64,000 nt of DNA from an uncultured Clostridia bacterium. GTDB lineage: Bacteria; Bacillota; Clostridia; TANB77; CAG-508. A program made the translations under genes and the position numbers. Location: NCBI GenBank assembly GCA_934120045.1, contig CAKOTF010000003.1, forward strand, positions 1,210 through 65,209, given 5' to 3'. Under the pieces are notes generated by a model. It had not been told where the DNA came from, made no database searches, and worked only from the letters and a program-made list of their open reading frames with translations. Of the stretch, positions 4,163 to 43,701 are shown one piece after another. Numbering within the stretch: position 1 is the first letter of the stretch; every line of letters begins with the position of its first letter.

Positions 4163-4191
4163 GACAATTCAAATTATTATCCTTATAATTA
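4163..4191 (+). promoter_or_regulatory. promoter of pflB (ttgaca-17-tataat)
   Basis: Consensus -35 and -10 hexamers with a 17-nt spacer. Confidence 0.5.
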
Positions 4192-27523: not shown

Positions 27524-28510
27524 TTATTTTAATTTCTTTCTTACTTGGTCAATTTGTTCTTGAGTAGCATTTGTACATTTTTTTATTTCGTCATCTTTGT
27601 AATTAAGATTAAGCATATTTTTTATAGTTGAAAATAGATTTTCTAATTTTCCTCTAGTTTCACCAATTTTTATATTTTTCTTCTTTTCCAATCTTATATT
27701 ATTATTAATTCTTTCAATTAAATCTTCCATATTTTCGTTTTTCTCCTTTTCATATAACAATTTTAAAATTTTTGATTTAGAAGTATCATCTAAAGTTTTA
27801 GCAAAAACATATGTTACTAAATTATTAACCCATTCTTTTGTATTAGATGTGTTTGCATGAATTGCAATATATTCAAGTGTTTGTGCTAATTCTAAATGAT
27901 TTTTACACTTTTCAATTAAAAGCATATAAGATATTTTATTGTGGATATTTTTTAATTTATCTATACTGTAAGCATGAATATCAATTAGCTTATAAATTTG
28001 ATTGATAACAAATGATTTGTTAGAAAAATTAAATGTTTGAGTATCTGAAAAATTAGTTGGAATATTCCAAGGTTGTTTTCCTGTGTAAATAACAATTGGA
28101 ACAATTAAAGGATTTTTTAATTCAATTTTATTTTTCTTGATTTCACGCATAAGTTCAGTAGAATATTCTAAAATTCTTCTAGGCATGTCAATGTTTACAG
28201 TGGATTGATGTTCAATTAAATAAAAAGTATTTTGAATTATATCTTTATATAAAATATCTGATTCTCTTCGCTTGTAATTATTTGTAATAAAACTACTATT
28301 ATATATTTTTAAATTTTCTGAATTCACCTCCAATCCAATAAATGTTTTTAAAAAATCTGTCATTTCATATGAACTCTTTAATATTTCTTTGAATGTTTTA
28401 TCATGAACTTGAAATATAACATCTTTAGAAATGATAATAATGTCATTTGAGTAAGTTGATGAAAATTCGCTCGAAGAAATAGAGTTGTTTGTATTTAAAA
28501 ATTTGGGCAA
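27524..28510 (-). CDS. Rpn-family recombination-promoting nuclease / putative transposase (Transposase_31-like)
   Basis: An N-terminal DxxFKxIL...IEHQST region typical of the YhgA/Rpn PD-(D/E)XK family. Confidence 0.55.
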   Translation of the reverse strand: MPKFLNTNNSISSSEFSSTYSNDIIIISKDVIFQVHDKTFKEILKSSYEMTDFLKTFIGLEVNSENLKIYNSSFITNNYKRRESDILYKDIIQNTFYLIEHQSTVNIDMPRRILEYSTELMREIKKNKIELKNPLIVPIVIYTGKQPWNIPTNFSDTQTFNFSNKSFVINQIYKLIDIHAYSIDKLKNIHNKISYMLLIEKCKNHLELAQTLEYIAIHANTSNTKEWVNNLVTYVFAKTLDDTSKSKILKLLYEKEKNENMEDLIERINNNIRLEKKKNIKIGETRGKLENLFSTIKNMLNLNYKDDEIKKCTNATQEQIDQVRKKLK

Positions 28511-28873: not shown

Positions 28874-30931
28874 TTGAAAAATAAAGAAAAAACAAGAAAA
28901 AAGAAGAATCAAGATGGGCCTATAGTAATAGAATTAAATTTAAGTTTAACAGTGGGAATAATTGGAGCAATAATAGCAATAATAGTTGCAATAACAACAG
29001 TAAAAGTAATAACAACAATGATCCAAGCAAATGAAAACAAAAATGCAGCAAATGAAAGTGATATAAATCAATATGCAACATATGTAACAAGTACAACTAA
29101 AAATGAGAGTGGAAATATTGTAGAAGACAAAGATAGTAATGGAAATGTTATAAAAATTCCAGTTCCAAAAGGATATACTGCGTCACAAATAGATGGTGAA
29201 ACATCATTAAATAAAGGCTTTGTAATTTATGAAGGAGATGTAGACTGGAATACAATATTATTAAATACAAGTATGCAAAGTACAAATTCAAGTAATACAA
29301 AACCAGTAAATACTAATACAGAAAGCACACAAAGTAGTAAAACACAGCCTACAAATAGTGAGGAAACACAAAATACAGAAACACAAAGTACAACAACACA
29401 ATCTACAAACACAGAAACAAAATCAACAAATGATATGCCAAACGATGAAGAACAAACAGAAGAAAATACAATAATAGATAATGTTCAAAATACACAAAGT
29501 ACAATGAATACACAAACATCAAGTACAGATGCAACAAATAATAAAACAATAAGTACTGAAAAAACAAGCGAAACACTAAAAACAGAAAATGAAGAAAATA
29601 AAAATGAAAATCAAAATAATATAACAACATCAACAAAACAAGAAGAAAATCAAGAGAATCAAGCAACAAAAAGTACAGTAGAAGATAGCTCAACATCAAA
29701 TAAAGTAACAAATTCAACAGCAAATAATACAACAGAAAGCACTAACCCAAAACAAAATGAGAACAATGAAAATAATATACAAGAAAATCCAAAAGAAACA
29801 ATAGTAGAAAAAAGTACAGAAAATGGAATAGATGGAACGAATGCAGTAGATGTAGAAGATGAAACAGCAGATGATACAGGTACAACAGGTTCAACAGAAT
29901 TAACATTAGAAGAACAACAAAACAAAAATATATTTGATTTACAAAAGGAAAGAAACCAGTATGTATGGGTGCCAGTAAGTAACATATCAGAAATATATGG
30001 AGTAGATAGTAATAAAAAAATATGGGGAAAATTATACAACTTTTCAAGTTCAGGAAGATCAAATAGAAACTGGACAGAAACAAATGGAATAATGAGTATA
30101 ACAAATGCAACAAACTATAGAGAACCAGATGTGTTAAGTAATTTTTCAGGTAACTATGAGTATCAACATTACGACCAAGACGGTTATTCATATATGCACA
30201 GTTATGGATTAGGACAAACAAGATATGAAATGTTAGCACAGGAATTAGAACAAAACTATTTAGAAATAATGGAAAGCATAAAGAAATATGGAGGCTTTTA
30301 TATAGGAAGATATGAAACAGGAGGATTGAACGGAACAGCAGTAGTAAGAAAAATGGACACAAATATAGCTTCTCAAAATTGGTATACGATGTATAAAAAA
30401 TGTTTAACATTAAAAGGAAGTAATGATAATATAAAAACAATGATGATAACAGGAAGTTTGTGGGATGAGACATTAGAGTGGTTAGTGAAATCAGGAGCAA
30501 CGAATTCAGCAGGAACAACATTAACATATCAATTAGTAGGAAGCAATTCAACAACATTCGGAAATTATAATAATGCAACATTTAGTTATATAGCGAAAGA
30601 TGCAGAACAGCCAGTAGAGACAGAGACAAAAGAGACAAGTAAAGGTGTTTTAATACCAACAGGAAGTGCAGAATATACGAAGACGAATAACATATATGAT
30701 ATGGCAGGAAATGTGTGGGAGTGGACTACAGAGGCCTACTCTTCTTTCTCCAGGGTCTATCGTGGTGGCGTTTACAACAGCTACGGCTACGGCTATCCGA
30801 TGGCATACCGTAACGACGGCAGTCCGAGCAACTACAGCAGTGACTTACGGGTGCAGGAGCTTACTTTGCATAAAATAGGGTATCCTGAAACACTGTATCC
30901 TGATACAGCACCAAGAAGAGTAACAAATTGA
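28874..30931 (+). CDS. DGR variable (target) protein: N-terminal TM helix, long Thr/Asn/Gln/Ser-rich linker and a C-terminal FGE-sulfatase / C-type-lectin-fold domain containing the VR
   Basis: YIGRYETG...NIYDMAGNVWEWT...RGG FGE-sulfatase signature. The VR occupies the last about 65 codons. The start may be TTG at 28874 or ATG at 28913. Confidence 0.85.
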   Translation: MKNKEKTRKKKNQDGPIVIELNLSLTVGIIGAIIAIIVAITTVKVITTMIQANENKNAANESDINQYATYVTSTTKNESGNIVEDKDSNGNVIKIPVPKGYTASQIDGETSLNKGFVIYEGDVDWNTILLNTSMQSTNSSNTKPVNTNTESTQSSKTQPTNSEETQNTETQSTTTQSTNTETKSTNDMPNDEEQTEENTIIDNVQNTQSTMNTQTSSTDATNNKTISTEKTSETLKTENEENKNENQNNITTSTKQEENQENQATKSTVEDSSTSNKVTNSTANNTTESTNPKQNENNENNIQENPKETIVEKSTENGIDGTNAVDVEDETADDTGTTGSTELTLEEQQNKNIFDLQKERNQYVWVPVSNISEIYGVDSNKKIWGKLYNFSSSGRSNRNWTETNGIMSITNATNYREPDVLSNFSGNYEYQHYDQDGYSYMHSYGLGQTRYEMLAQELEQNYLEIMESIKKYGGFYIGRYETGGLNGTAVVRKMDTNIASQNWYTMYKKCLTLKGSNDNIKTMMITGSLWDETLEWLVKSGATNSAGTTLTYQLVGSNSTTFGNYNNATFSYIAKDAEQPVETETKETSKGVLIPTGSAEYTKTNNIYDMAGNVWEWTTEAYSSFSRVYRGGVYNSYGYGYPMAYRNDGSPSNYSSDLRVQELTLHKIGYPETLYPDTAPRRVTN
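30731..30866 (+). repeat. DGR variable region (VR)
   Basis: It aligns base-for-base with 32924..33059. About 35 differences all fall where the TR has A, and it ends in a conserved gggtgcaggagcttact (IMH-like). Confidence 0.88.
30889..30906 (+). other. short hairpin (ctgtatc-ct-gatacag) just downstream of the VR/IMH
   Basis: A perfect 7-bp inverted repeat 24 nt after the IMH-like sequence. Such hairpins are known to flank DGR VRs. Confidence 0.4.
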
Positions 30932-31123
30932 AAACATAAAAGGCGAGAAAATTTTTCACAAGTTCATATAAAAAGTAAATAAAAAGCCAAACAATTCTTT
31001 TTAGAATTGTTTGGCAAAATATAAAAATAAACTTATTGTCGAGAGTTATATTTTTATAAAGTCAAATAATGGAAATTGAATTGAATTAATGAGGTAGTAT
31101 AATATTAGGCAGAAAGGAAAAAG

Positions 31124-31522
31124 ATGAAATATATAGAAATACTACAAAAATTACAAAAAGAAGAACCAGACCACATAATTCTGATGAAAAATGGAATCTT
31201 TTTTATAGCAATAGGAAAAGATGCAATAGAATTAAATAAATTAATAGGACTTCAATTAACATGTATGAAAAAAGAATTATGCAAAGTTGGTTTTCAAACT
31301 AAGAGTTTGGAAAAATATATAGAAAAAATAAAAGAAACACAAAAATCATTTATAATATATACATATAATAAAGAAACCCAAAAAGAAGAAAAAATATATC
31401 AATATACAAATGAGCCAGTAACTGAAACAAAAACATGTAATGATTGTAACAAATGCAGTAGAAAAAAAGAAACAGAAGATGAAATAATAGAAAGAGTGAA
31501 AAAACTTGGAACAATATCTTAA
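31124..31522 (+). CDS. DGR accessory ORF with an N-terminal MutS domain-I (mismatch-binding)-like segment and a CxxCxxC motif
   Basis: KYIEILQKLQKEEPDHIILMKNGIFFIAIGKDAIELNKLIGLQLT resembles the MutS N-terminus ([45 protein letters not shown]). It lies between the target gene and avd. Confidence 0.5.
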   Translation: MKYIEILQKLQKEEPDHIILMKNGIFFIAIGKDAIELNKLIGLQLTCMKKELCKVGFQTKSLEKYIEKIKETQKSFIIYTYNKETQKEEKIYQYTNEPVTETKTCNDCNKCSRKKETEDEIIERVKKLGTIS

Positions 31523-31922
31523 TATACAAGATAAGAAAAAGCAAGAACAAAGAATAATAGAAAATAATTGCTTAACAATAATTCCAAAAACAGAAAGATA
31601 TATACAATATATGCTTGACTTAATATTAAAATTACCAAGAACAGAAAAATTTAATATAGGAACAGAATATAAGACGAGTATGTATCAAATGATGGAAGAA
31701 GTAATTTATGTTAGTAAATTACCACTTGAAGAAAGATATACACATGTTATAAAAATAGATGTTTTAGTTCAATTACAAAGAATATATTTAAGACTTATGA
31801 AAAATAATAAATGGATTGATGAAAGAAAATTTAAAATAGCAATAGAGCAATTAGGCGAAATAGGAAAAATAAATGGAGGTTTAATAAAGTTCTATGGCAA
31901 GAACTATAAGAAACCAATTTGA
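31506..31922 (+). CDS. avd: Avd (accessory variability determinant) homologue, a four-helix-bundle protein
   Basis: The ERYIQYMLDLILKLPRTEKF and LVQLQRIYLRLMKNNKWIDERKFKIAIEQLGEIGKINGGLI pattern parallels Bordetella bAvd (ERYERVISYLYPIAQSIPRKH ... LRFWLRFL...AEVGRILGSWI). It overlaps the RT start. Confidence 0.7.
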   Translation: MEQYLNIQDKKKQEQRIIENNCLTIIPKTERYIQYMLDLILKLPRTEKFNIGTEYKTSMYQMMEEVIYVSKLPLEERYTHVIKIDVLVQLQRIYLRLMKNNKWIDERKFKIAIEQLGEIGKINGGLIKFYGKNYKKPI

Positions 31923-32904
31923 TAAATATTTAACATATGATAACTTAATGAAAGCACATAAGTTATCAAGAAAAGGTAAAAACCTAAGAAGGGAAGTAGT
32001 ATTATTTGACTTAAAGCAAGAAGAATATATACAATGGATATATGAACAACTGAAAACAGAAAAATATCAGCATGGAGGATACAGAATATTTATAATAACA
32101 ATACCAAAAGAAAGAAAAGTACAAGCATCAAGATATATAGACAGAATAGTACACAGATGGGTAGTAGATAATTTTTTAAAACCATATTTTGAAACACAAT
32201 TCATAAATACAACATATGCTTGCATAAAAAATAGAGGAATGCATAGAGCAACGCTAGATGTTCAAAAAGCGATGAGACATTGCAAAAATAAATGGCAAGA
32301 TTATTATATATTGAAAATGGATGTAGCAAAATACTTTCAAAATATTGATAAAGATATTTTATTTAAAATTTTAAAAAGAAAGATTAAAGATAAAAAATTA
32401 TTAAACCTAATGTGGAAAATAATATATTCAGAAGAATCACCTAAAGGAATGCCAATAGGAAATTATACTTCACAAACACTAGCAAACATATATTTGAATG
32501 AAGTTGATCAATATGCGAAAAATGAATTAAAATGTAAATATTATTTTAGATATATGGATGATACAATAATTTTATTAAAAACAAAACAAGAAGCTATCAT
32601 AGTACTAGAAAAAATAAGAAAATTCTTAAAAGAAAAGTTAGAACTTGAACTGAATTCAAAAACTCAAATTTTCAAGTCAAAACAAGGAGTGAATTTTTGT
32701 GGATATAAAATTAATGAATATAGATTAAAAATTAGAACAAGAGGAAAAAAGAGCTTAAAAGATAAAGTAAAAAAATTAGAAACGCAAATACAGCAAGGAA
32801 AGTTGACAACAAAAGATGCTTATAAATTTCTAAGTGGACATTTAGGATACATACAAATAGCTAATGTAAAAACATTAGAAAATAAATTATTTTATGAAGA
32901 TTAA
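31894..32904 (+). CDS. DGR reverse transcriptase
   Basis: RT motifs are present, including PIGNYTSQTLANIYLNEVD (the DGR-specific [IVL]GxxxSQ) and FRYMDDTIIL (YxDD). The 336-aa size is typical of DGR RTs. Confidence 0.92.
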   Translation: MARTIRNQFDKYLTYDNLMKAHKLSRKGKNLRREVVLFDLKQEEYIQWIYEQLKTEKYQHGGYRIFIITIPKERKVQASRYIDRIVHRWVVDNFLKPYFETQFINTTYACIKNRGMHRATLDVQKAMRHCKNKWQDYYILKMDVAKYFQNIDKDILFKILKRKIKDKKLLNLMWKIIYSEESPKGMPIGNYTSQTLANIYLNEVDQYAKNELKCKYYFRYMDDTIILLKTKQEAIIVLEKIRKFLKEKLELELNSKTQIFKSKQGVNFCGYKINEYRLKIRTRGKKSLKDKVKKLETQIQQGKLTTKDAYKFLSGHLGYIQIANVKTLENKLFYED

Positions 32905-32923
32905 AATAATAGGGATAAATCGT

Positions 32924-33059
32924 AAGGCCAACTCTACTAACAACAGGGTCTATCGTGGTGGCAATTACAACAACAACGGCAACAACAATCCGATGGCAAA
33001 CCGTAACAACAACAATCCGAACAACAACAACAGTAACAAACGGGTGCAGGAGCTTACTC
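32924..33059 (+). repeat. DGR template repeat (TR), AAC-rich
   Basis: It is homologous to the VR, with adenines at every variable position, and lies immediately 3' of the RT gene. Confidence 0.88.
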
Positions 33060-33243
33060 TAATATCATTCTAGATTATTTATTTCATGGAATAAATACAA
33101 CGAAATATTAGATATTAAAGAGGTTTATTCCTTCCTAATTTAGGTAAAAATGTATCGGCTAATTATGTGTTAGTAGTTATTATGAAAATATGTAATTTAG
33201 CAAAAATATTTTGAATAAAAAATTCAAAACATAGGAATAAGAA

Positions 33244-33516
33244 ATGAATGAATGTTTTTTTATAGGAAAAATAATAAAAAACAATGGATTTAAATTTATT
33301 TTAAACAAAAAAAATAAATCTAAAATTGAATTTGAACTGAAATTAATAGATAATAACATATTAAAAATAGTTGCATATGATGAAAAAGCAGATTTTATAT
33401 TCAGAAATAATTTTGATATAAATGATATTGTTTTCATTAAGGGAAAAATAAGAACAGAACATGAAAAATTAATAATTGTTATTAATTATATAGAAAAAAT
33501 ATTTAGGAAAAAATAG
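33244..33516 (+). CDS. small hypothetical protein upstream of the pilus operon
   Basis: A 90-aa ORF with no recognisable motifs. Confidence 0.35.
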   Translation: MNECFFIGKIIKNNGFKFILNKKNKSKIEFELKLIDNNILKIVAYDEKADFIFRNNFDINDIVFIKGKIRTEHEKLIIVINYIEKIFRKK

Positions 33517-33536: not shown

Positions 33537-36500
33537 ATGAGCAAAAAGAAACTTACGAAAAAAAGTATAATATTAAGAACAATAATTGTACTAATAGCAG
33601 TAAGTATAGTAATTGGTATATATGTATTAAACAAAACACAAAAAATTGATAAATCTACAATGTCATCAGAATTACAAAGAACACAAGCATATGATGATGT
33701 AAAAGATGGAGATAATGCAATAAAAGATAATGCTGGAAATACAGTAAATGCAGTAAAATTTGATGCATTTTTCTTAAAAGATAAAAATGGAGACGGAGTA
33801 GCAGAATCAATAAGAGGAACATGTAATGAAATAGGAAGCCAAGCAAGTTTATACATGGAATTAAGTGTACTTGAACAAGGAAGACTAAAAGATGGAAAAA
33901 TAACAATTAATTCTAACAACTTTTATTTTAATACAACAATTGTAAAAGACAACGAAGTAAAAGACAACTATATTTCATCAAATACAAAAGAAATAAACTT
34001 TAATGAAATAGGTAATGGTACACAAAAATTATTAATAGGTTCAGTTCGTTCAGGTGATTATTCAAATTCTTATACAAAAACAAGTGCAATTGGAAATGAT
34101 ACAACAAAATATAGTAAAGAAAATTCTATAACATTTTCAGGAACATTTGTAGATAGTGAAGGGAATGAAACTACATTTTCTAAGGAAGTTCCGTTTACAG
34201 TTGACTGGTATGGTGAAACACATGTAGAAATTGATCCTAAAAGTCAAACTGTAGAAGTTACAGAAATGAATGATTTATCTACAGAAGATGGAGTAAAATT
34301 AAATTTTAATATTAGAACTGTAGAAAATAAAAACCAATTAAGTATATCAAGTTCAGAAATTAGTGGAACTATACCAGAATTAAATGGATATAAACCAACA
34401 TCAGTAAAAATATCTGGAACAAATGTAACATATACATATGATGCAGAAACAAGTGAATTTACAGCACAAAGAACAGCTGTGTTAAATGAAACTGGAGTTA
34501 TAACTTCAAATGGATATTCTTATTCATACTCTTCTGGTAATAGATATACAGAATTTAATTTTGAAATAACATATCCGGAAGAAGCATATACAGCTTTAGG
34601 TCAAGATGTAACAAGTTTTGAATTAGCAATTCCTGTACAAGCAGTAACAAGAGGATATAACAATCCAAATGAAGAAGACGGATTTATAAATCCATATGTA
34701 TCAAATACTGCAACAGGAATAGTAACAACAACATGGAGAAAACATGTAGGGCAATTATATGATTTTGCTATATATGTAGGAACATATATGGGTTCACCAT
34801 ATAATACATATGTTATTCAAAAGAAGAAACCATTAAACATTTATAATGGAATATCAGCAGAAGAAAAAAATGATACATATTTAGTACAATGGAGAACATA
34901 TACAGGCTCAAATGGTGCAACAGATGGAATAATAATGAATGAAACAACAGGAAAAACAGATTCATTTTTAAACACATCAGCAAAATATGAATCAATGGAT
35001 GAATTAACAACAAATGTTGGAATTTATTTTAGTGGTGCAAATAATGCATTAAATTCTGATGGATGGATTAAAGTATATGATGCAGATACAGATACACTAA
35101 TAAATACATTTACAGAAGAAGACTGGTCAGACTATACTTCTTCAAATCCATATAAATACGAAAATTCTATAAAACATATTAGAGTAGAAACAAGTAGTAC
35201 AAATGAACAATGTTATTTCTATGTAAATAATATCAAAGAATTAGATGATGAATATATAACAACAAAATATACAAAAGAAGAATTTGACAATTTATCATAC
35301 ATATACAGTTATTTAGATGGAAAAATGATAAAACCAAAAACAGATGAAAATGAAGAAACAACATATTGTTTTAAAGAAAGTGAAAGTAATAGAGCATTAT
35401 ATCAAGCACCAACATCTGTTGCAACAATATCAATAAAAGACAATACAATATCAACACATGTAACAGCAGAACACCAACAAATAACAATATCAACACAAAC
35501 ATCAGGATATAATGAACAAGGTTGGAAAAATAGTTCATTTTTAGTACAATTACCAAGTGAAATAATACTTGGAGAAATTAATACTGTAACAACAAATAAT
35601 TCAAATGTAAAAATAACAGCATATGATATATATGAAGAAAATGGAAATTATTACATAAGAATATTAACAGAAAATTCAAATGAGGAAACATTTAATATTA
35701 TAGTAGATTGTGATTTAACACCAGACCCAAGAATAGCAAAAACAACAAAATATGTAAAATTATGGGCTAAAAATGGAATAGCATCAGATTATTATTATTC
35801 TGGTGAAGATAAATATGATGTTGATGGAAATTCTAATACAACAGAAAAAGTAAATTATAGAGAAACATCATTTACATTTGATCCAGGTTCAAGTTTAAGT
35901 ACAACTCAAGTAGGAAGTAATTATGATGGTGAAGGTGGTATAACAATAGCACCAAGAGTTGCAAAAACAGATAAAGGACAAAGAACAGCAACAATTACAG
36001 TATCTGCAACAAATAATTACACATATGATATACAAGACTTGAAAATATTGGGTGTAATACCATTTGAAGGAAATCAATTTGTAATTAGTGGAAATGATTT
36101 AGGTTCAACATTTACAACATATATAAGTAAAGGTGGATTATCAACAATAACTAATGCAATAAAAGATAAAGTAAAAATATATTATTCAACAACAGAAAGA
36201 CCAAGCAAAGATGTAGAAGATTTAGCAAATGGTTGGAAATTAGCTAATGATGTTGAAGATTGGACAAAAATAAAAACATATTTAATTGTATTAGATAATT
36301 CATATAAATTATCATCAGGAGATAAAATTGAATTTGAATATGAAATCAATTTACCAGAAGGTGTTGATTATAATAAAATAGCATATTCAGAACATGCAAT
36401 ATATTTCGCATTAAATACTGATGAAGGATTATATTATACCTCAACAGGCTCTGCAAGATTAGGATTTATGATAGCAAAACAATATGATTTAGAAATTGTA

Positions 36501-39500
36501 AAATATCAAAAAGATACTGAAAAAACATTACAAGGAATAACATTTGCAATTACTGAAGATGGTGCAGAAACAAGTACAATTAAAACAACAGATGCAGATG
36601 GAAAACTTTTAGTAACAGGTTTATATGCAGAAAGATATTATACAATAAAAGAAATAAAAACAACAGATGATTATGTATTAAATCAAGAAGAAATAAGATT
36701 TTATACATACACAAAAATAAATGAAGATGGATCAGAGAGTTTATATTTAACATATCCAAATAAAGAAAATGAAAGTACACATTTGAATGTTATATATAAA
36801 ACAGTTAGAAATGACCAAGTAAATCCACCAAGTAATGGAAAAGATTATAAAATTCAAGTAAAAGTTAATAATGAAGTAAAAGCTAAATTAAAAATTAATA
36901 AAACAGATTTATCTGGAAATGTTTTAAAAAATGTTAAATTTATATTAACAGGAGAAGGAAAAAATGGCGAGATATTAACAACAGATAAAAATGGAGATAT
37001 TAATACATCAGGACTTCTTTTAGGTAAAGAATATACATTAGAAGAGATAAAAGCAACAGGTTATTATATTCCACAGACAAAAATTAAGTTTACAATATCA
37101 AATAATAATGGAAATTTTGAATTAAATTATACAGATAATAATACAACAAAAACAAAACAGATTATAACAACAGATGAAATACCAACAATAGAGTTAAATT
37201 TACAAAATGAAAAAATACCTACATATAGTTTACAATTAACCAAATATGCAAAAGGAGAAAAAGATACAAATGGAAATGATAAAAAATTAGCAAAAGCTCA
37301 ATATTTAATTAAAGGTGAAGGCATAAAAGATGAAGGTAAGATTTATACAACAGATGATAATGGAGTTCTTACAATAAATGATTTATATGAATATGTAGAA
37401 GGAAAATATATAACAGGTGAATATATATTAAAAGAAATTTATGCACCAGAAGGATATTCTCTAGACTCTACTGAATTGAAATTTAAAGCATATAGAGAAA
37501 ATGGGACATTGAAAATACAAATTCTTGAAGGTGATTCTGTAATTAGAAAGATTACAGTTGATGGTGTAGATAAAACAGACTTAAATATAAAAGATGCAGC
37601 TACTTCAAATGCAATAATTGAAATAGGTGTTGAAGATGGACAAATATTTTCAATTTATAAATATTATCAAGATGGTACAAGTTCAGCTAAAAAGCCAATA
37701 CCTGGAACAAGATTTAAAATTACAGATTTAAATGGAAATTATGTTACAGGTTCAGATGGGAAGACTGTTGGACAATGGTTTGATACAACTCCAGAACAAT
37801 TACCTGTACCAGATATAACATTATCTTCTACAGGAACATATCAATGGACACAAAGAGATGATGGAACTTGGGAAAGTACAGGAATTTATCATCAAGCAAG
37901 TAAAACAACAACATTGACATCAAATGAAATAGATTTAAAGCAAGCAGCAACATTGAAATTTGATTGGTCAGTATCATCTGAAAGTGTAAGTTATGATTAT
38001 GTTTATTATACAATTACAAATTTAGATACAAATAAAGTAGTAAATGGAACAGGAACATCAACCAAAATTGGTGGAACAAGTTATGGAACAGTTTATGAAA
38101 GTTTGAAATTTTTAAATGTATCATTAGATTTAACAGCAGGAAAATATAAAATCGAATTTACTTATAGGAAAGATGGATCAGGAGATAAAGGCTTAGACGC
38201 AGCTTTTATAAGAAATGTAAGATTTGAACAAAAAGAAGTTGAAAAAACAGGATATTATGCTGTAACAACAGATTCAAATGGACAAATAACAGCAAATTTA
38301 CCAGAAGGTTTATACAAGGCAATAGAAGTATATACAAATGATAGATATGTATTACCAGAAAAAGAAGCAGATAGAACATATTATTTTGGAATTGGTTCAT
38401 CACAAGCAGCAACATGGGATTGGGTAACAGGATTAACAGGAGAAGGTTGGAACTATGTAAATTCAGTTTCTGCACAAAAAGATGGAGGAGTAATAGCAGT
38501 TGGTTCATTCTCTAAATATTCAACAAATGTTGTAGCAAATGCTGTAGATGGAATTGATATAGATAATGATGGAACAGTTGATGAAATATCAGAAGGAAGC
38601 AATGATGGACTAATAATATCTTATGATACAGACGGAAAAGTAGTATGGTCAAAAACATTTGGAGGAGATAGTGATGATTCATTAAATAAAGTTATTCAAA
38701 CATCAGATGGAGGATATGTTGCAGTTGGATATGCTGAGAGTAATTCAATAAAATATGATGGAAAAATAATAAGTGAGCTTTCAAGAACATCAACAGATAA
38801 TTTATCACAAAAAGATGCAATATTATTAAAAATAAGTAAAGATGGAACTTATGAATGGGGCTTAAGAATTGGTGGAACAGGTGATGATGAAATACAATCA
38901 GTAATAGAAACAAGTGAAGGAAATTTCGCAATTACAGGAAACTATTATAGTTCACCATTTAACTTTTTTGATAGAGCAGGAACTGAAGTCAAAGGAACAA
39001 TGACAAATACTGGAGAAAGAGATGCATTTGTAGCATCATATTCTTCAACAGGAATATATCAGTGGAGTTCAGCAATAGGAGGAACAAATAATCAAGATGC
39101 GCCAGATTTAACAGAATATTCTACAGGAATTGCAGTAGCATCAAATTCAAGTACATCAGCACGTATCAGCTTATATTCATTAACAGGATCAGCTATAAAA
39201 AGTGCATTTTTAATAGGTAGTGGAACAAGCAAAATAACAAGTTTAGATACATATACAGATGGAACAATTATTGCAGGTGTAAATTATACAGGAACACAAT
39301 TTGATGCAGGAATATATAAAATAACAACAACAGGAAGTTCAACAAGAATTTATGAATTAACAGGAACTTATGATGAATATGTATCAGATGTACAAGTAAC
39401 ATCAGATGGAGGAATTTTATTTGGAGGCTGGTATTATTCAACAGATACAGCTGGAAGTGATGGAACAACATTTGAAGAAAAATCTGGTGAATATGCATGT

Positions 39501-41228
39501 GATGGATATGTAATAAAACTAAATTCAAAAAATGTTGTTGAATATTCAAGCAGATTATATGGAGACAATTATGATGGAGTAAATACAGTTACAGAAACAA
39601 GAAATGGAGCATTAGTATCTGGAGGATTTTATAATTCGTCAACATTTAGTGCAACAAATTGTAAAATAGAGAAAAGTGAAGATGATACAACACCAGTAGA
39701 ACAAATGCTTACAAGAGTTGGAAATTCAGAAGCATTTATAATAGCAGAAGGTGCATCAGGTGCAGAAGTACCAGAATCACAAAAATTAGAAGTTGAAAAC
39801 CAAATAAAATCATTCAAAATAACAACAGAGGTTAAAAAGAAAAATAATGTAGCTGGTGGAGATATAGATGGACAAACAGGTGTAACAATAGATGGAGTTA
39901 ACTATACAAAAGACGGAATAAGATATGTAGAAAAAGTAAAATATGGAGAAAATTCAAAAAATGCAATAAAAATAACACCAAATGCAAAATATGTAATAGA
40001 CAGTATAATAATAAATGGAAAAGAATATACAAACTTTACAACAGCAGAAGATGGAACAGTAACATTACCAATATTTGATAATGTATTAGAAGATAAGCAC
40101 ATTGTAGTACAATTTAGTAATACAATGGCAAATATAGAAGTAAATCATTATCTATGGACAAAAGCTGATGGGCCAACAACTACAAAAGTAGCAGAAACAC
40201 AAACAAGTACAGGAGAAGTTGGAACAACATATGAAACATCACCAAATACAGATATAGAATATGTAATTATAACAAATTCAGATTATTATGGTGAGAATTT
40301 ACCAGAAGGAGTAGTAGGAAGTGATTACTATATTCCAGCAAATTATAAAGGAACATATACAGAAGGAACAAAAGAAGTAATAAATTATTATTATAAAGAA
40401 AAAACATATAAATTAACAGTTCATCACTATTTAGATGGAACAACAGAATCAGTACCACTTAAAGATTCAACAACAGGTGAAAAAGTAGCAGATGAAATAA
40501 CAGAAGATTTAAAGAAAAATAGTGAATACACAACAACACAAGCAGGAGAAACAAAAATAGATTATTCAATTTATGAACTAGTTTCAATTCCAGAAAATGC
40601 TACTGGAACAATACAAGAAGATACAGAAGTAACATATTATTATAAAATAAAAACAGCAGATATTAGAATAACTAAAGTAGCAGAAGAAGATCATGAAAAA
40701 ACATTAGTAGATACGCAATTTGTATTATATCAATTTGTAGGAACAACTTCAAAAGATGAATTGATAGATACAAAAAATGTAAGCTCAGATTGGAAATTAA
40801 TTGGAACATATGCAACATCAAATTTAGGAATATTAAAACTAGAAAATTTACCAATAAATGAAGAATATAGATTAATAGAAATAAAAGCAACAGAAGGAAG
40901 AATAATTCCAGATGGACAATGGAAAATTCAATTTGTTACTGGAAATTATGACACAACAGATACATCAATAGTTACTATTAATGGGGTACCATTTAAAATA
41001 AATGCAATAGGAAATCCACCAGCTATGGTAAAAACAGATGATGGAAAACTATTACTTCCAAACAAGGAATATTATAAATTTCCAACAAGTGGAAGTATAG
41101 AACTAAAAATGTTTTATCAAACTGGAATGATTATTGTTACGATAGGGGTTGTTATAATGGCTCTTATAATAGTAAAAAGGTGTTATGTAAAAAACACTAA
41201 AAAAGTAAAGAAAGGGAGAAAACACTAA
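33537..41228 (+). CDS. giant (2563-aa) pilus tip/surface adhesin with an N-terminal signal-anchor, several Cna-B/SpaA-like isopeptide domains, an SBBP beta-propeller repeat region and a C-terminal membrane anchor
   Basis: Repeated domains of the form LEIVKYQKDTEKTLQGITFAITEDG...YYTIKEIKTTDDY (prealbumin-like fold). Repeats GGDSDDSLNKVIQTSDGGYVAVGY and GGTGDDEIQSVIETSEGNFAITGN are SBBP-type. The C-terminus has a hydrophobic helix and a KRK tail after FPTSG. Confidence 0.85.
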   Translation: MSKKKLTKKSIILRTIIVLIAVSIVIGIYVLNKTQKIDKSTMSSELQRTQAYDDVKDGDNAIKDNAGNTVNAVKFDAFFLKDKNGDGVAESIRGTCNEIGSQASLYMELSVLEQGRLKDGKITINSNNFYFNTTIVKDNEVKDNYISSNTKEINFNEIGNGTQKLLIGSVRSGDYSNSYTKTSAIGNDTTKYSKENSITFSGTFVDSEGNETTFSKEVPFTVDWYGETHVEIDPKSQTVEVTEMNDLSTEDGVKLNFNIRTVENKNQLSISSSEISGTIPELNGYKPTSVKISGTNVTYTYDAETSEFTAQRTAVLNETGVITSNGYSYSYSSGNRYTEFNFEITYPEEAYTALGQDVTSFELAIPVQAVTRGYNNPNEEDGFINPYVSNTATGIVTTTWRKHVGQLYDFAIYVGTYMGSPYNTYVIQKKKPLNIYNGISAEEKNDTYLVQWRTYTGSNGATDGIIMNETTGKTDSFLNTSAKYESMDELTTNVGIYFSGANNALNSDGWIKVYDADTDTLINTFTEEDWSDYTSSNPYKYENSIKHIRVETSSTNEQCYFYVNNIKELDDEYITTKYTKEEFDNLSYIYSYLDGKMIKPKTDENEETTYCFKESESNRALYQAPTSVATISIKDNTISTHVTAEHQQITISTQTSGYNEQGWKNSSFLVQLPSEIILGEINTVTTNNSNVKITAYDIYEENGNYYIRILTENSNEETFNIIVDCDLTPDPRIAKTTKYVKLWAKNGIASDYYYSGEDKYDVDGNSNTTEKVNYRETSFTFDPGSSLSTTQVGSNYDGEGGITIAPRVAKTDKGQRTATITVSATNNYTYDIQDLKILGVIPFEGNQFVISGNDLGSTFTTYISKGGLSTITNAIKDKVKIYYSTTERPSKDVEDLANGWKLANDVEDWTKIKTYLIVLDNSYKLSSGDKIEFEYEINLPEGVDYNKIAYSEHAIYFALNTDEGLYYTSTGSARLGFMIAKQYDLEIVKYQKDTEKTLQGITFAITEDGAETSTIKTTDADGKLLVTGLYAERYYTIKEIKTTDDYVLNQEEIRFYTYTKINEDGSESLYLTYPNKENESTHLNVIYKTVRNDQVNPPSNGKDYKIQVKVNNEVKAKLKINKTDLSGNVLKNVKFILTGEGKNGEILTTDKNGDINTSGLLLGKEYTLEEIKATGYYIPQTKIKFTISNNNGNFELNYTDNNTTKTKQIITTDEIPTIELNLQNEKIPTYSLQLTKYAKGEKDTNGNDKKLAKAQYLIKGEGIKDEGKIYTTDDNGVLTINDLYEYVEGKYITGEYILKEIYAPEGYSLDSTELKFKAYRENGTLKIQILEGDSVIRKITVDGVDKTDLNIKDAATSNAIIEIGVEDGQIFSIYKYYQDGTSSAKKPIPGTRFKITDLNGNYVTGSDGKTVGQWFDTTPEQLPVPDITLSSTGTYQWTQRDDGTWESTGIYHQASKTTTLTSNEIDLKQAATLKFDWSVSSESVSYDYVYYTITNLDTNKVVNGTGTSTKIGGTSYGTVYESLKFLNVSLDLTAGKYKIEFTYRKDGSGDKGLDAAFIRNVRFEQKEVEKTGYYAVTTDSNGQITANLPEGLYKAIEVYTNDRYVLPEKEADRTYYFGIGSSQAATWDWVTGLTGEGWNYVNSVSAQKDGGVIAVGSFSKYSTNVVANAVDGIDIDNDGTVDEISEGSNDGLIISYDTDGKVVWSKTFGGDSDDSLNKVIQTSDGGYVAVGYAESNSIKYDGKIISELSRTSTDNLSQKDAILLKISKDGTYEWGLRIGGTGDDEIQSVIETSEGNFAITGNYYSSPFNFFDRAGTEVKGTMTNTGERDAFVASYSSTGIYQWSSAIGGTNNQDAPDLTEYSTGIAVASNSSTSARISLYSLTGSAIKSAFLIGSGTSKITSLDTYTDGTIIAGVNYTGTQFDAGIYKITTTGSSTRIYELTGTYDEYVSDVQVTSDGGILFGGWYYSTDTAGSDGTTFEEKSGEYACDGYVIKLNSKNVVEYSSRLYGDNYDGVNTVTETRNGALVSGGFYNSSTFSATNCKIEKSEDDTTPVEQMLTRVGNSEAFIIAEGASGAEVPESQKLEVENQIKSFKITTEVKKKNNVAGGDIDGQTGVTIDGVNYTKDGIRYVEKVKYGENSKNAIKITPNAKYVIDSIIINGKEYTNFTTAEDGTVTLPIFDNVLEDKHIVVQFSNTMANIEVNHYLWTKADGPTTTKVAETQTSTGEVGTTYETSPNTDIEYVIITNSDYYGENLPEGVVGSDYYIPANYKGTYTEGTKEVINYYYKEKTYKLTVHHYLDGTTESVPLKDSTTGEKVADEITEDLKKNSEYTTTQAGETKIDYSIYELVSIPENATGTIQEDTEVTYYYKIKTADIRITKVAEEDHEKTLVDTQFVLYQFVGTTSKDELIDTKNVSSDWKLIGTYATSNLGILKLENLPINEEYRLIEIKATEGRIIPDGQWKIQFVTGNYDTTDTSIVTINGVPFKINAIGNPPAMVKTDDGKLLLPNKEYYKFPTSGSIELKMFYQTGMIIVTIGVVIMALIIVKRCYVKNTKKVKKGRKH

Positions 41229-42793
41229 TGAAAGAAAAAACATTATTTAAAGCAATAGTTGTTGCTATTGCAATTGTCCTAATTGTTATGGGACTAAATT
41301 TACAAGCGTTTGCATCAATAACTACAACAACAAATACAAAAAATATTACTGTTTCAGGAATTGAAGCAGGAGTAAAAGTATCTGCATATCAATTAACAAC
41401 AGTTAATTATGATTATACAGCAGACCAACCACAAGCTGTTCCATATACTTGGAATAGCAGTGTGAAAACATGGGTAGATGCTAATTATTCAACATATTCA
41501 AACCCAGAAAACTTTTATAAAAATGTAACAAGTAATTCTGATGAAGCAAAAGAATTTTATAGTGCATTATCAGGAGCTATAAAAGCTGGAACTGTTACAT
41601 TAACAGCAAAAACAGAAACTGCAACAGGAACAGCATCATATCCTGTTACAGATGATAAATTAACAGGAACAGTTACATTCACAGGATGTGAAATGGGAAC
41701 ATATTTAATTTTAATTGAAAATGGTTACAAAGTATATACACCATCTGTAATTAATTTAACACCAGAATTTGATAGAACATCAAATGAATGGAAATTACCA
41801 GATTCAATGATAGTAACAGTAAAAGCAACTAATCCCCAAGTTACAAAAACTGTTACAGATACAGCAAAAAACAAAGATAATTACAGTACAAAAGATGTAA
41901 TACCATTTACAATCGTTGCAGATATACCAACATATTTAACAGGAAGTTTATCAAAAACATATAAAGTTGGAGATACATTAAGTAATGGTTTAAAATTAGA
42001 TGATTCAACAATTAAAGTATATGGACAAAAAGGTTCAGGAAATCCTGTTGAATTAACAAAAACAACAGATTATACAAGTTCAGTAACAGGAACAACATCA
42101 TTTGAAATTAATTTTAAATATGATCAAATAAAAAATTATGACAAAGTAAGAGTTACATATAGTGCATCTCTTGCAAAAGAAACAACAACAAATATTGGTG
42201 GAGCTGGAAATACAAACACAGCAAAATTAACATATAGCAATAATCCATATGTTGCAAATTCTACACAAGAACAAGAAACAAGCAACAAAGTATTTACATA
42301 TGGTGCAGAAATTACAAAAACAGATAAAACATCTGGTGAAGCATTAACAGGTGCTGAATTTGAATTAACAAAAGATTCAAACAAATTATATTTTGTAAAA
42401 ACAGCTGATGGAGTATATTATCAAGCAAATAGCTCTGATGTAGGAGCAACAACAACTTTAGGAGTTGATAATAAGGGAAAATTAAACATATTTGGTTTAG
42501 CAGAAGGAACATATAGTTTAACAGAAACAAAAGCACCTTCAGGATATAATAAATCAGCAGAAACAAAAGAAATAAAAATAACAGATGCTGACTTAAATGG
42601 AGCATTAGATGATGAAACAGGTTCAACAGGAATTTATAAATTAACATTCCCTAACTCACAAGGATTCCAATTACCAGTAACAGGTGGAGCTGGAACAGTA
42701 GCATTTGTAGCAGGAGGAGTAGTATTTGTTGGATTAGGTATTGCATTATTTGTAATTGCTATGAAAAAAGGAAAAAAAGTAAATGAAAAATAA
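41228..42793 (+). CDS. major pilin subunit, LPXTG-anchored (LPVTGG, TM, KKGKK)
   Basis: A signal peptide and a C-terminal sorting signal LPVTGGAGTVAFVAGGVVFVGLGIALFVIAMKKGKK. A Cna-B-like domain is present (ETKAPSGYN). The start overlaps the adhesin stop (taATGa). Confidence 0.8.
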   Translation: MKEKTLFKAIVVAIAIVLIVMGLNLQAFASITTTTNTKNITVSGIEAGVKVSAYQLTTVNYDYTADQPQAVPYTWNSSVKTWVDANYSTYSNPENFYKNVTSNSDEAKEFYSALSGAIKAGTVTLTAKTETATGTASYPVTDDKLTGTVTFTGCEMGTYLILIENGYKVYTPSVINLTPEFDRTSNEWKLPDSMIVTVKATNPQVTKTVTDTAKNKDNYSTKDVIPFTIVADIPTYLTGSLSKTYKVGDTLSNGLKLDDSTIKVYGQKGSGNPVELTKTTDYTSSVTGTTSFEINFKYDQIKNYDKVRVTYSASLAKETTTNIGGAGNTNTAKLTYSNNPYVANSTQEQETSNKVFTYGAEITKTDKTSGEALTGAEFELTKDSNKLYFVKTADGVYYQANSSDVGATTTLGVDNKGKLNIFGLAEGTYSLTETKAPSGYNKSAETKEIKITDADLNGALDDETGSTGIYKLTFPNSQGFQLPVTGGAGTVAFVAGGVVFVGLGIALFVIAMKKGKKVNEK

Positions 42794-43676: not shown

Positions 43677-43701
43677 CATATACAAAATTTTAAGATAGGG
43701 T

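What the first reader, a model, noticed from the sequence alone, without database searches (positions are those of the whole stretch)
31124..31522. MutS-domain-I-like (mismatch-binding) mini-protein inside the DGR cassette
The 132-aa ORF between the target gene and avd has an N-terminal stretch, YIEILQKLQKEEPDHIILMKNGIFFIAIGKDAIELNKLIGLQLT. This tracks the MutS mismatch-recognition domain I ([40 protein letters not shown]) position for position, through PD-x-I-L, the G-x-F containing the mismatch-stacking Phe, DA and the LxLT ending. The Glu of the F-x-E motif is replaced here by Ile. A CNDCNKC cysteine cluster follows. A stand-alone mismatch-binding module in a system that creates A:N mispairs during mutagenic retrohoming is mechanistically suggestive. 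It could recognise or protect the cDNA:target heteroduplex, or recruit or shield it from mismatch repair. This is not a standard annotated DGR component in the way Avd and the RT are, and it may be a new accessory factor.
Basis: inference. Interest (0 to 1): 0.75.

Follow-up and report, generated by a model that had tools for sequence, protein, structure and literature searches.

The report
MutS-like DGR accessory protein (MSL)
The small gene between the variable-protein gene and avd really does encode a stand-alone copy of the MutS mismatch-binding domain, but this "MSL" accessory protein of diversity-generating retroelements was described in 2018, so it is a new member of a known family whose function has still not been tested.

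Summary

The ORF lies in an active chromosomal DGR: 25 of 25 internal VR/TR mismatches are at TR adenines, and sister strains carry different VRs. It is translationally coupled to avd and RT.

In an RT-first survey, MSL was present in 39 of 44 cassettes whose RT is at least 42% identical, and in 0 of 22 more distant ones.

The claim of novelty fails. Wu et al. 2018 named this family MSL (MutS-like; "Architecture D"), and papers from 2023-2026 repeat it. No functional test was found.

My best mechanism, by inference, is a non-signalling mismatch or heteroduplex binder that shields the cDNA:VR heteroduplex from host MutS.

New details:
- An invariant Cys4 signature (C47, C53, C108, C111; C105 is not conserved).
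- A co-inherited 90-aa tail-less SSB-like gene after the TR.
- An Rfam RT-14 RNA directly 3' of the TR.

The parts
28874..30931 (+). DGR target (variable protein) gene, 685 aa. It has an N-terminal membrane anchor, a long low-complexity S/T/N/Q-rich linker and a C-terminal FGE-sulfatase/C-type-lectin-like domain that carries the VR.
   Evidence: ORF. Pfam FGE-sulfatase E 2.4e-5 at aa 578-625. The C-terminus is 79-83% identical in sister strains, against 98-100% for msl, avd and RT.
30733..30866 (+). Variable repeat (VR), 134 nt, at the 3' end of the target gene.
   Evidence: Ungapped match to the TR. 25 of 25 internal mismatches lie at TR adenines; the only other mismatch is the boundary position. 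No second VR in the window.
30986..31015 (.). Inverted repeat with a 13-bp stem and 4-nt loop, 55 nt after the target gene's stop codon. It is terminator-like, but its T-run is on the - strand only. Its role was not tested.
   Evidence: sequence.
31076..31103 (+). Promoter-like site (TTGAAT-16 nt-TATAAT) ahead of msl. This is a consensus match only.
   Evidence: Such sites are not enriched over shuffles in this AT-rich region.
31124..31522 (+). msl: a MutS-like (MSL) accessory protein of 132 aa. Residues about 1-95 form the MutS domain I fold. Residues about 100-132 form a tail with a CxxC and a C-terminal helix. Key residues are F26 (the position of the MutS stacking Phe), I28 (the position of the MutS Glu), and C47, C53, C108 and C111.
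   Evidence: dN/dS is 0.05-0.26 against orthologues.
31506..31922 (+). avd (accessory variability determinant), 138 aa from a TTG start. It overlaps the end of msl by 17 nt.
   Evidence: Pfam bAvd E 1e-16, PHROG 'Avd protein of DGR' 9e-17, NCBIfam DivGenRetAVD 5.7e-18. Gene callers predict the same overlap in sister loci.
31894..32904 (+). DGR reverse transcriptase, 336 aa. It overlaps the end of avd by 29 nt.
   Evidence: Pfam RVT_1 E 2.2e-21. NCBIfam group II RT-like 4.9e-38.
32926..33059 (+). Template repeat (TR), 134 nt with 53 adenines. The 59-aa ORF 32894..33073 is the TR read in frame and is not a gene.
33057..33201 (+). Rfam RT-14 RNA motif, directly 3' of the TR. It is probably the structured part of the DGR RNA that follows the template.
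   Evidence: RF02921: 109.1 bits against a gathering score of 48.1, E 8e-16, full-length match. The same motif lies next to the TR in 14 of 17 related loci, including the MSL-less L076 and L091.
33244..33516 (+). Small SSB/PriB-like OB-fold protein, 90 aa, pI 9.6, with no acidic C-terminal tail. It is co-inherited with the msl-avd-RT cassette and is a candidate fifth cassette gene.

Best explanation
Shown: the ORF encodes a member of the MSL (MutS-like) accessory-protein family of diversity-generating retroelements. It is a stand-alone MutS domain I fold. It lacks the connector, lever, clamp and ATPase domains that MutS uses to signal repair. It is expressed from the same overlapping msl-avd-RT gene string as the retroelement's core proteins, and the DGR is demonstrably active in nature.

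Inferred mechanism: after the RT-Avd complex makes adenine-mutagenised cDNA from the TR RNA, the cDNA pairs with the VR and forms a heteroduplex dense in mismatches. MSL binds that distorted DNA using the retained Phe wedge (F26). It has lost the Glu that MutS uses for mismatch discrimination and for authorising repair, and it has no ATPase or MutL-contacting parts. It therefore occupies the mismatches without triggering repair, which keeps host MutS/MutL from restoring the parental VR. The four invariant cysteines (C47 and C53 in a core hairpin, C108 and C111 in the tail) are predicted to form a metal site, probably Zn, that staples the C-terminal tail onto the domain. The co-inherited tail-less SSB-like protein plausibly coats the single-stranded cDNA in the same pathway.
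For: Identity:
- Pfam MutS_I above threshold; 58 of 59 relatives hit it.
- The family profile hits only Taq MutS domain I in the PDB sequence set.
- Published MSL family.

Domain loss: the protein is 132 aa. The NCBIfam MutS equivalog model matches only positions 10-85 of 793, at 18 bits against a cut-off of 480.

Motif: F26 is kept in 127 of 130 relatives and G24 in 124 of 130. The MutS-Glu position is Glu in 1 of 130.

Cys4: C47 and C53 are each kept in 129 of 130. C108 and C111 are kept in about 90% of sequences that have a residue there. All four are invariant in the 59-sequence alignment.

Selection: dN/dS 0.05-0.26.

Linkage:
- msl overlaps avd, and avd overlaps RT.
- In the MSL-first search, 21 of 25 genome loci have avd and RT directly downstream. 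The other four carry truncated or remnant msl copies with no avd or RT detected.
- In the RT-first search, MSL is present in 31 of 36 cassettes (RT at least 53% identical), 8 of 8 (42-52%) and 0 of 22 (41% or less).

Active element: 25 of 25 VR/TR mismatches lie at TR adenines. Four strains differ at 39 VR positions, 35 of them at TR adenines, and the four non-adenine TR changes are copied into the cognate VRs.

MMR opposes DGRs: deleting mutS in Bacteroides raises retrohoming 5-10-fold. Engineered E. coli DGR systems add dominant-negative MutL or delete mutS.
Against: - No experiment on any MSL protein was found.
- Wu et al. note that MutS is not required for Bordetella phage retrohoming. That shows MMR is not needed; it does not show that MMR is harmless.
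- Deleting mutS had no effect in one E. coli reporter assay, but that assay scores an 18-nt insertion that is not a MutS substrate.
- The Msl-bearing Bacteroides DGRs were the low-activity ones. That observation is confounded by low transcription.
- 4-5 of 36 close cassettes lack msl, so it is not strictly essential.
- An isolated MutS domain I is, to my knowledge, a weak DNA binder on its own. MSL is only mildly basic (pI 8.7).
- The tail carrying the CxxC is modelled at pLDDT 52-75. I could not read model coordinates, so clustering of the Cys4 residues is untested.
Confidence: 0.45

Rival explanations
1. MSL is a targeting or assembly adaptor of the retrohoming machinery. It binds the RT-Avd-RNA/cDNA complex or the cDNA:VR joint (a D-loop or RNA:DNA hybrid carrying A:N mispairs). 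It stabilises strand invasion or priming at the VR, independently of host mismatch repair.
For: msl is translationally coupled to avd and RT. Wu et al. report MutS_I-like C-terminal extensions fused to three DGR RTs, which suggests the module works physically with the RT. MSL always occurs with Avd (39 of 39 here). The family has its own Cys4-plus-helix tail, absent from MutS, which could be a protein or RNA interaction surface.
Against: No interaction data exist. By my knowledge of the Bordetella system, RT-Avd alone suffices for adenine-mutagenic cDNA synthesis, and most DGRs work without MSL (0 of 22 distant cassettes here). The near-invariant Phe at the mismatch-stacking position points to DNA-lesion contact rather than pure scaffolding.
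Confidence: 0.25
2. MSL is a governor that restrains or times diversification. It binds mismatched intermediates and blocks their fixation, or acts as a checkpoint, so that hypermutation of a surface protein occurs only in bursts.
For: In Bacteroides the three Msl-bearing DGRs (Bfr, Bth, Bun) had minimal activity, while the two Msl-less ones (Bov, Bfi) were constitutively active.
Against: The same paper attributes the difference at least partly to lower avd/TR/rt transcript levels. VRs of this MSL-bearing element differ widely between near-identical strains, so the element is not silenced. Co-inheritance with the RT over long divergence fits a helper at least as well.
Confidence: 0.1
3. MSL recruits or redirects host mismatch repair so that the heteroduplex is resolved in favour of the cDNA strand.
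For: It is homologous to the mismatch sensor, and its location suits the idea. Macadangdang et al. infer all-or-nothing repair of VR heteroduplexes.
Against: MSL lacks every MutS part known to contact MutL or the clamp and to hydrolyse ATP (length). It has lost the Glu tied to repair authorisation. Host MutS lowers retrohoming rather than raising it.
Confidence: 0.08
4. The resemblance is incidental, or the ORF is a decaying remnant with no role in the DGR.
For: A few cassettes lack it or carry deletion fusions. The top phmmer hit in the PDB sequence set was diaminopimelate decarboxylase (E 0.005).
Confidence: 0.02

Closest known systems
MSL (MutS-like) accessory proteins of DGRs: Wu et al. 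2018 'Architecture D', including the Legionella DGR; Msl of the Bacteroides Bfr, Bth and Bun DGRs (Macadangdang et al. 2024)
   Same: A small protein (132 aa; published range 112-283 aa) with MutS homology. It is encoded inside a DGR cassette that also has avd and no HRDC gene, and it is restricted to clades of the RT tree. Like the Bacteroides examples, this cassette lies next to a pilus or adhesin locus.
   Different: The host is an uncultured, very AT-rich gut Clostridia lineage. I could not compare directly with the published sequences because the supplement is not held. The texts I could read do not mention the Cys4 signature, the systematic loss of the Glu, or the co-inherited SSB-like gene.
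Domain I (mismatch-binding domain) of MutS/MSH proteins, for example Taq MutS 1ewq/1fw6 and human MSH6 2o8b_B
   Different: It is stand-alone, with no domains II-V. The Glu of Phe-X-Glu is replaced by Ile, Val or Thr. The loop before the 'MAGIP' strand is shortened and bracketed by two Cys. A CxxC tail and helix are added.
MutS_I-like C-terminal extensions on three DGR reverse transcriptases (Wu et al. 2018)
   Same: The same domain type is associated with the DGR RT, which argues for a role in the retrohoming machinery.
   Different: Here it is a separate polypeptide upstream of avd. The fusions seen in this family (P0044 and L089) look like deletion products rather than designed fusions.
Small phage 'MutS domain I' or 'DNA mismatch repair' proteins in BFVD (74-153 aa; Myoviridae sp. 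ctsK93, ctPuP5; Siphoviridae sp. ctZro7)
   Same: Stand-alone MutS_I fold of similar size (Foldseek E 2e-5 to 8e-4).
   Different: Only 19-23% identical. I did not examine their genomic context. This subfamily has no match in the phage or IMG/VR collections.
Engineered MMR suppression in DGR and oligo recombineering (dominant-negative MutL E32K in pORTMAGE/DGRec; mutS-deleted hosts)
   Same: A functional analogy for the proposed role: blocking mismatch repair so that cDNA-templated changes survive.
   Different: A different protein and a different mechanism (poisoning MutL rather than occupying mismatches). The analogy is inference only.

Membership tests
MutS domain I (Pfam PF01624) | Sequence match to the family profile above the curated threshold | tested here: met
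   32 bits against a gathering score of 20.6, E 1.5e-7, covering profile positions 8-95 of 113. 58 of 59 diverse relatives also match.
MutS domain I (Pfam PF01624) | Domain I fold as in solved MutS/MSH structures | tested here: met
   [not shown]
MutS domain I (Pfam PF01624) | Phe of the Phe-X-Glu mismatch-recognition motif | tested here: met
   F26 aligns with Taq MutS F39. It is conserved in 127 of 130 relatives.
MutS domain I (Pfam PF01624) | Glu of the Phe-X-Glu motif | tested here: not met
   I28 aligns with Taq MutS E41. Across the family this position is I/V/T/N, and Glu occurs in 1 of 130.
Canonical MutS/MSH mismatch-repair protein | Connector, core/lever, clamp and ABC ATPase domains (II-V) | tested here: not met
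   The protein is only 132 aa. NCBIfam MutS equivalog models match positions 10-85 of 793 at 18 bits against a cut-off of 480. It is not a MutS enzyme.
DGR accessory protein MSL (Wu et al. 2018) | Small protein (112-283 aa) with detectable MutS homology | tested here: met
   132 aa with MutS_I by sequence and by fold. Definition.
DGR accessory protein MSL (Wu et al. 2018) | Encoded within a DGR cassette that also carries avd and has no HRDC gene | tested here: met
   The order is target, msl, avd, RT, TR, with msl overlapping avd and avd overlapping RT. None of the five cassette ORFs hits HRDC in Pfam.
DGR accessory protein MSL (Wu et al. 2018) | Distribution follows clades of the DGR RT tree | tested here: met
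   RT-first survey: MSL in 31 of 36 and 8 of 8 cassettes with RT at least 42% identical, and in 0 of 22 at 41% or less.
DGR accessory protein MSL (Wu et al. 2018) | Roughly neutral charge (pI 7.2 +/- 1.7) | tested here: met
   Calculated pI 8.7, within one standard deviation of the published mean.
DGR accessory protein MSL (Wu et al. 2018) | Direct sequence relatedness to the 16 published MSL proteins or to the Bacteroides Msl | not testable with these tools
   The supplementary sequences are not held. The protein databases returned no names or accessions.
Diversity-generating retroelement | TR/VR pair whose differences fall at TR adenines, next to a DGR-type RT | tested here: met
   The repeat is 134 nt, and 25 of 25 internal mismatches lie at TR adenines. 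RVT_1 RT and Avd are present. VRs differ between strains at adenine positions.
SSB/PriB-type OB-fold protein (for the 90-aa ORF 33244..33516) | OB fold superposable on SSB/PriB | tested here: met
   [not shown]
SSB/PriB-type OB-fold protein (for the 90-aa ORF 33244..33516) | Match to the Pfam SSB profile above threshold, and the acidic C-terminal partner-binding tail of bacterial SSB | tested here: not met
   Only sub-threshold OB or SSB hits and no NCBIfam hit. The protein ends ...IEKIFRKK, which is basic, and has no tail beyond the OB fold.

The most novel reading that the evidence does not exclude
This DGR clade carries a two-protein 'cDNA-fixation' module that has not been described as such. 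One part is an MSL protein that is a metal-stapled (Cys4), Glu-less MutS wedge hiding the mismatch-dense heteroduplex from host repair. The other is a tail-less mini-SSB that coats the cDNA and, lacking the SSB tail, keeps SSB-recruited host factors such as ExoI away. These would be natural counterparts of the MMR suppression and sbcB deletion that engineers had to add to make DGRs work in E. coli. The SSB-like gene would then be a new DGR accessory class.
Probability: 0.25. Interest if true: 0.65.

Novelty: new member of a known kind. Interest (0 to 1): 0.3.

Why it matters
The step after cDNA synthesis, in which mutagenised cDNA replaces the VR, is the least understood part of mutagenic retrohoming. 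Recent work shows that host MutS and ExoI oppose it.

MSL is the one DGR accessory family whose fold points directly at that step, and I found no test of it. This locus adds no new family. It does give a compact, clearly active, chromosomal cassette in which msl, avd, RT, TR, the RT-14 RNA and a mini-SSB travel together.

It also gives specific residues to mutate (F26, C47, C53, C108, C111), and natural msl-less relatives for comparison. That makes the question "does a DGR encode its own anti-mismatch-repair factor?" directly testable.

It could also improve DGR-based directed-evolution tools, which currently rely on crippling host MMR globally.

Tried and rejected
2. Phage origin. tblastn of MSL against 50,697 phage records found nothing. 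The MSL pattern scan of IMG/VR found no relative. The RT has only two distant IMG/VR relatives. The window is a chromosome carrying GroEL, PFL, MurC, RadA, BipA and RqcH.
3. Linking to published MSL sequences. The Wu 2018 supplement is not held. Cluster look-ups returned no names. The broad profile search returned only 'hypothetical protein' labels.
4. The 59-sequence alignment was too diverse for the search for related loci, so I used the closer alignment.
5. The afdb50 fold library was unavailable.
6. The plasmid search gave only a MutS_I-like stretch inside a 3,234-aa 'helicase-related protein' of a Prevotella plasmid, with no DGR context.
7. A second VR or remote target in the window: none found.
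8. Testing whether the four Cys cluster in space was not possible, because model coordinates are not exposed to the scripts.
9. I asked whether msl-less relatives prove dispensability. L076 still shows adenine-specific VR/TR mismatches, but its RT ORF is broken, so the result is inconclusive.
10. The literature search for the RT-14 RNA found nothing in the held library.
I rely instead on the Taq MutS alignments from the PDB set.

Full report
**1. What is at the coordinates**

- ORF 31124..31522 (+) is a real 132-aa ATG ORF with exactly the quoted sequence.
- It is preceded by an SD-like AAAGGA and by a TTGAAT-16-TATAAT promoter-like site at 31076..31103. The promoter site is a consensus match only.
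- It lies in a compact same-strand cassette:
  - variable-protein gene 28874..30931, with an FGE-sulfatase/C-type-lectin-like C-terminus (Pfam E 2.4e-5);
  - the ORF itself;
  - avd 31506..31922 (bAvd 1e-16; PHROG 'Avd protein of DGR' 9e-17; NCBIfam DivGenRetAVD 5.7e-18);
  - RT 31894..32904 (RVT_1 2e-21);
  - a template repeat.
- The ORF overlaps avd by 17 nt, and avd overlaps the RT by 29 nt. Gene callers predict the same overlaps in related loci. This indicates one translationally coupled unit.

**2. The retroelement is real and active**

- VR 30733..30866 and TR 32926..33059 align without gaps. All 25 internal mismatches fall at TR adenines; the TR has 53 adenines.
- Four metagenomic sister strains carry msl-avd-RT that is 98.9% identical in DNA. 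Their VRs differ at 39 positions, 35 of them at TR adenines.
- The four non-adenine differences are changes in the sister strains' TR that reappear in their own VRs. That is direct evidence of TR-to-VR information flow after the strains diverged.
- No second VR exists in the window.
- The window is an AT-rich (26.8% GC) bacterial chromosome, not a phage. It carries GroEL, pyruvate formate-lyase, MurC, RadA, BipA and RqcH.
- The closest genome records are uncultured gut Clostridia MAGs.

**3. Is the MutS resemblance more than chance? Yes, by three independent routes**

- Sequence against profile:
  - Pfam MutS_I gives E 1.5e-7 and 32 bits against a gathering score of 20.6, over residues 8-91.
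  - 58 of 59 diverse relatives hit the same model.
  - A profile of those relatives hits only Taq MutS in the whole PDB sequence set (E 2.7e-4, Taq residues 18-103).
- Fold:
  - The AlphaFold model has mean pLDDT 85.5. The core (residues 1-100) is at 84 or above, and the tail is at 52-75.
- Motif register:
  - Against Taq MutS the match is ungapped over 40 residues. G24-I-F26-F-I28 lies on G37-D-F39-Y-E41.
- The better-scoring phmmer hit to diaminopimelate decarboxylase is a chance local match. The fold search does not support it.

**4. The family**

- A full HMM scan of 1.84 billion representative proteins found 748 clusters (at 50% identity) at E up to 1e-3, and 230 at E up to 1e-10. The best 150 are all 64-269 aa long, so none of them is a full-length MutS.
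- Conservation across 130 aligned sequences:

| Position | Conservation |
|---|---|
| G24 | 124 of 130 |
| F26 | 127 of 130 |
| Residue 28 (MutS Glu position) | I/V/T/N; Glu only once |
| C47, C53, K54 | 129 of 130 each |
| C108, C111 | about 90% of sequences that have a residue there |
| C105 | variable |

- The conserved signature is G-x-F-[FY] ... C-x5-C-K-[VC]-G-[FIV] ... C-x2-C. C-x5-C-K occurs in 109 of 130.
- The two core cysteines bracket a hairpin loop that is 3 residues shorter than in Taq MutS.
- I infer a Cys4 metal site that ties the tail to the core.
- The gene is under purifying selection: dN/dS is 0.05-0.26 in unsaturated comparisons.

**5. Linkage to DGRs**

- MSL-first search: 25 genome loci were found, all in gut Clostridia MAGs. 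21 of them have avd and RT directly downstream. The other four carry truncated or remnant msl copies with no avd or RT detected.
- Flanking genes differ between loci (BipA, FtsH, HisS, an AI-2E transporter, a serine recombinase). The block therefore moves as a unit.
- RT-first search, which is not biased by MSL: 80 metagenomic loci were scored with HMMs.

| RT identity to window RT | MSL | Avd | 90-aa OB protein |
|---|---|---|---|
| at least 53% | 31 of 36 | 35 of 36 | 27 of 30 |
| 42-52% | 8 of 8 | 8 of 8 | 0 of 8 |
| 41% or less | 0 of 22 | 13 of 22 | 0 of 26 |

- MSL is therefore a clade-specific, co-inherited cassette gene. This is what Wu et al. reported for MSL on their RT tree.
- Exceptions exist. 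In L063, L076 and L083 the target gene abuts avd directly. L056 also lacks msl. L089 and protein P0044 are msl-RT deletion fusions.
- L076 keeps adenine-specific TR/VR mismatches, but its RT ORF is broken. These exceptions therefore do not settle whether msl is dispensable.

**6. What is already known**

- Wu et al. 2018 (PMC5758913) named this family MSL, for MutS-like. They found it in 16 of 372 DGRs, at 112-283 aa and pI 7.2 +/- 1.7. It always occurs with avd and never with HRDC, defines 'Architecture D', and includes the Legionella DGR. They also saw MutS_I-like extensions on three RTs.
- PMC10053308 lists MSL (PF01624) among known accessory proteins.
- Macadangdang et al. 2024 report Msl in the Bacteroides Bfr, Bth and Bun DGRs. 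They show that deleting host mutS raises retrohoming 5-10-fold in the Msl-less Bov DGR, with an all-or-nothing pattern.
- A 2026 preprint justifies MMR suppression by citing 'many MutS-like homologs' in natural DGRs.
- I found no experiment on Msl itself.

**7. Mechanism**

- Shown:
  - MSL has a MutS domain I fold, with the Phe retained and the Glu lost.
  - It has no ATPase, clamp or connector. The MutS equivalog models match only positions 10-85 of 793.
  - It is coupled to avd and RT, and the DGR is active.
- Established knowledge, recalled from the MutS literature rather than tested here:
  - In MutS the Phe stacks on the mismatched base.
  - The Glu hydrogen-bonds to that base and is linked to discrimination and to licensing of repair through the ATPase.
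- Inferred: MSL binds the mismatch-dense cDNA:VR heteroduplex, or a related distorted intermediate, through F26. It cannot signal, so it blocks host MutS and preserves the mutagenised strand. This fits the measured antagonism of MMR toward DGRs.
- I put this model at about 0.45.
- Rivals:
  - an MMR-independent adaptor for the RT-Avd-cDNA complex (0.25; supported by the RT fusions and the family-specific tail);
  - a governor that restrains diversification (0.10; suggested by the low activity of Msl-bearing Bacteroides DGRs, but confounded by transcription);
  - recruitment of MMR (0.08);
  - no function (0.02).
- An epistasis test, comparing an msl deletion in wild-type and mutS-deleted hosts, separates the shield, adaptor and governor models.

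**8. By-products**

- The 90-aa ORF 33244..33516, just after the TR:
  - It is conserved in 27 of 30 close cassettes and absent from all 34 more distant ones.
  - It is basic (pI 9.6) and lacks the acidic SSB tail.
  - Profile libraries barely see it. The held literature does not mention an SSB-like DGR accessory gene.
  - ExoI, an SSB-tail client to my knowledge, inhibits a reconstituted DGR non-catalytically. A cDNA-coating mini-SSB is therefore an attractive but untested idea.
- Rfam RT-14 RNA (RF02921):
  - It matches 33057..33201 at 109 bits against a gathering score of 48.1, directly 3' of the TR.
  - It lies next to the TR in 14 of 17 related loci, including the MSL-less L076 and L091.
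  - It is therefore a general feature of this DGR lineage and is not tied to MSL.

**9. Verdict**

- This is a new member of the known MSL family. The small additions are the Cys4 signature, the systematic loss of the Glu, the quantified clade restriction and the SSB-like partner gene.
- Interest for the finding as stated is modest, at 0.3. The family's function remains an open and now sharply testable question.

Noticed in passing
[not shown]
   Followed up: yes
window 33057..33201 (+): A full-length match to Rfam RF02921 'RT-14 RNA' (109 bits against a gathering score of 48.1) directly 3' of the TR. The same motif lies beside the TR in 14 of 17 related DGR loci, on either side of the genes and on either strand. 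It is probably the structured part of the DGR RNA that follows the template.
   Followed up: partly
window 30733..30866 compared with L002 5616-5749, L003 4875-5008, L004 2001-2134: Near-identical strains (msl-avd-RT 98.9% identical) carry VRs that differ at 39 positions, 35 of them at TR adenines. Four non-adenine TR substitutions in the sister strains are mirrored in their own VRs, which shows retrohoming in nature.
   Followed up: yes
window 33537..44397 (+): A sortase-dependent pilus or adhesin locus lies immediately downstream of the cassette. It has a 2,563-aa SpaA-domain protein, an LPXTG pilin-backbone protein and two sortases. SpaA-type giants also flank the cassette in L010 and the sister loci. 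This echoes the pilus-linked, Msl-bearing Bacteroides DGRs.
   Followed up: partly
P0044 (222 aa), P0088 (192 aa), L089 3435-4055: Deletion derivatives of the cassette. In P0044 and L089 the MSL N-terminus is fused in frame to the RT. In P0088 it is fused to an OB90-like sequence. These look like decaying cassettes rather than designed fusions.
   Followed up: partly
L063, L076, L083 (target gene abuts avd); L056: Natural msl-less cassettes within the same RT clade (RT 54-64% identical). L076 keeps adenine-specific TR/VR mismatches and the OB gene, but its RT ORF is interrupted.
   Followed up: partly
L108 4219-4361 and 4697-4782: Group II intron RNA domains (RF02004 at 110.7 bits; RF00029) lie right where the DGR RT ORF stops short (RT match ends at 4190). 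This suggests a group II intron inserted into a DGR RT gene.
   Followed up: no
window 27524..28510 (-): A Transposase_31 (YhgA/Rpn-like PD-(D/E)XK) gene on the opposite strand just upstream of the target gene. It is conserved at the same place in the sister strains.
   Followed up: no
window 30986..31015: A perfect 13-bp inverted repeat with a 4-nt loop, 55 nt after the target gene's stop codon. Its T-run is on the - strand only, so it is not an obvious + strand terminator. DGR target recognition in Bordetella phage uses a hairpin near the VR, but this one is about 120 nt from the VR end.
   Followed up: no
L123 4001-4324 (Prevotella sp. E2-28 plasmid pE2-28, NZ_CP091789.1): A MutS_I-like stretch (31.5% identity, E 4e-4) lies inside a 3,234-aa 'helicase-related protein' of a 205-kb plasmid, with no DGR nearby. 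The domain is reused in another mobile-element context.
   Followed up: no
L005 3003-4433 and 1494-2449; L036 1310-2932 and 7892-8605: Some MSL-type cassettes sit beside a large serine recombinase and a PemK toxin (with the pemK RNA motif in L005). This suggests carriage on integrative islands in those genomes, unlike the window.
   Followed up: no
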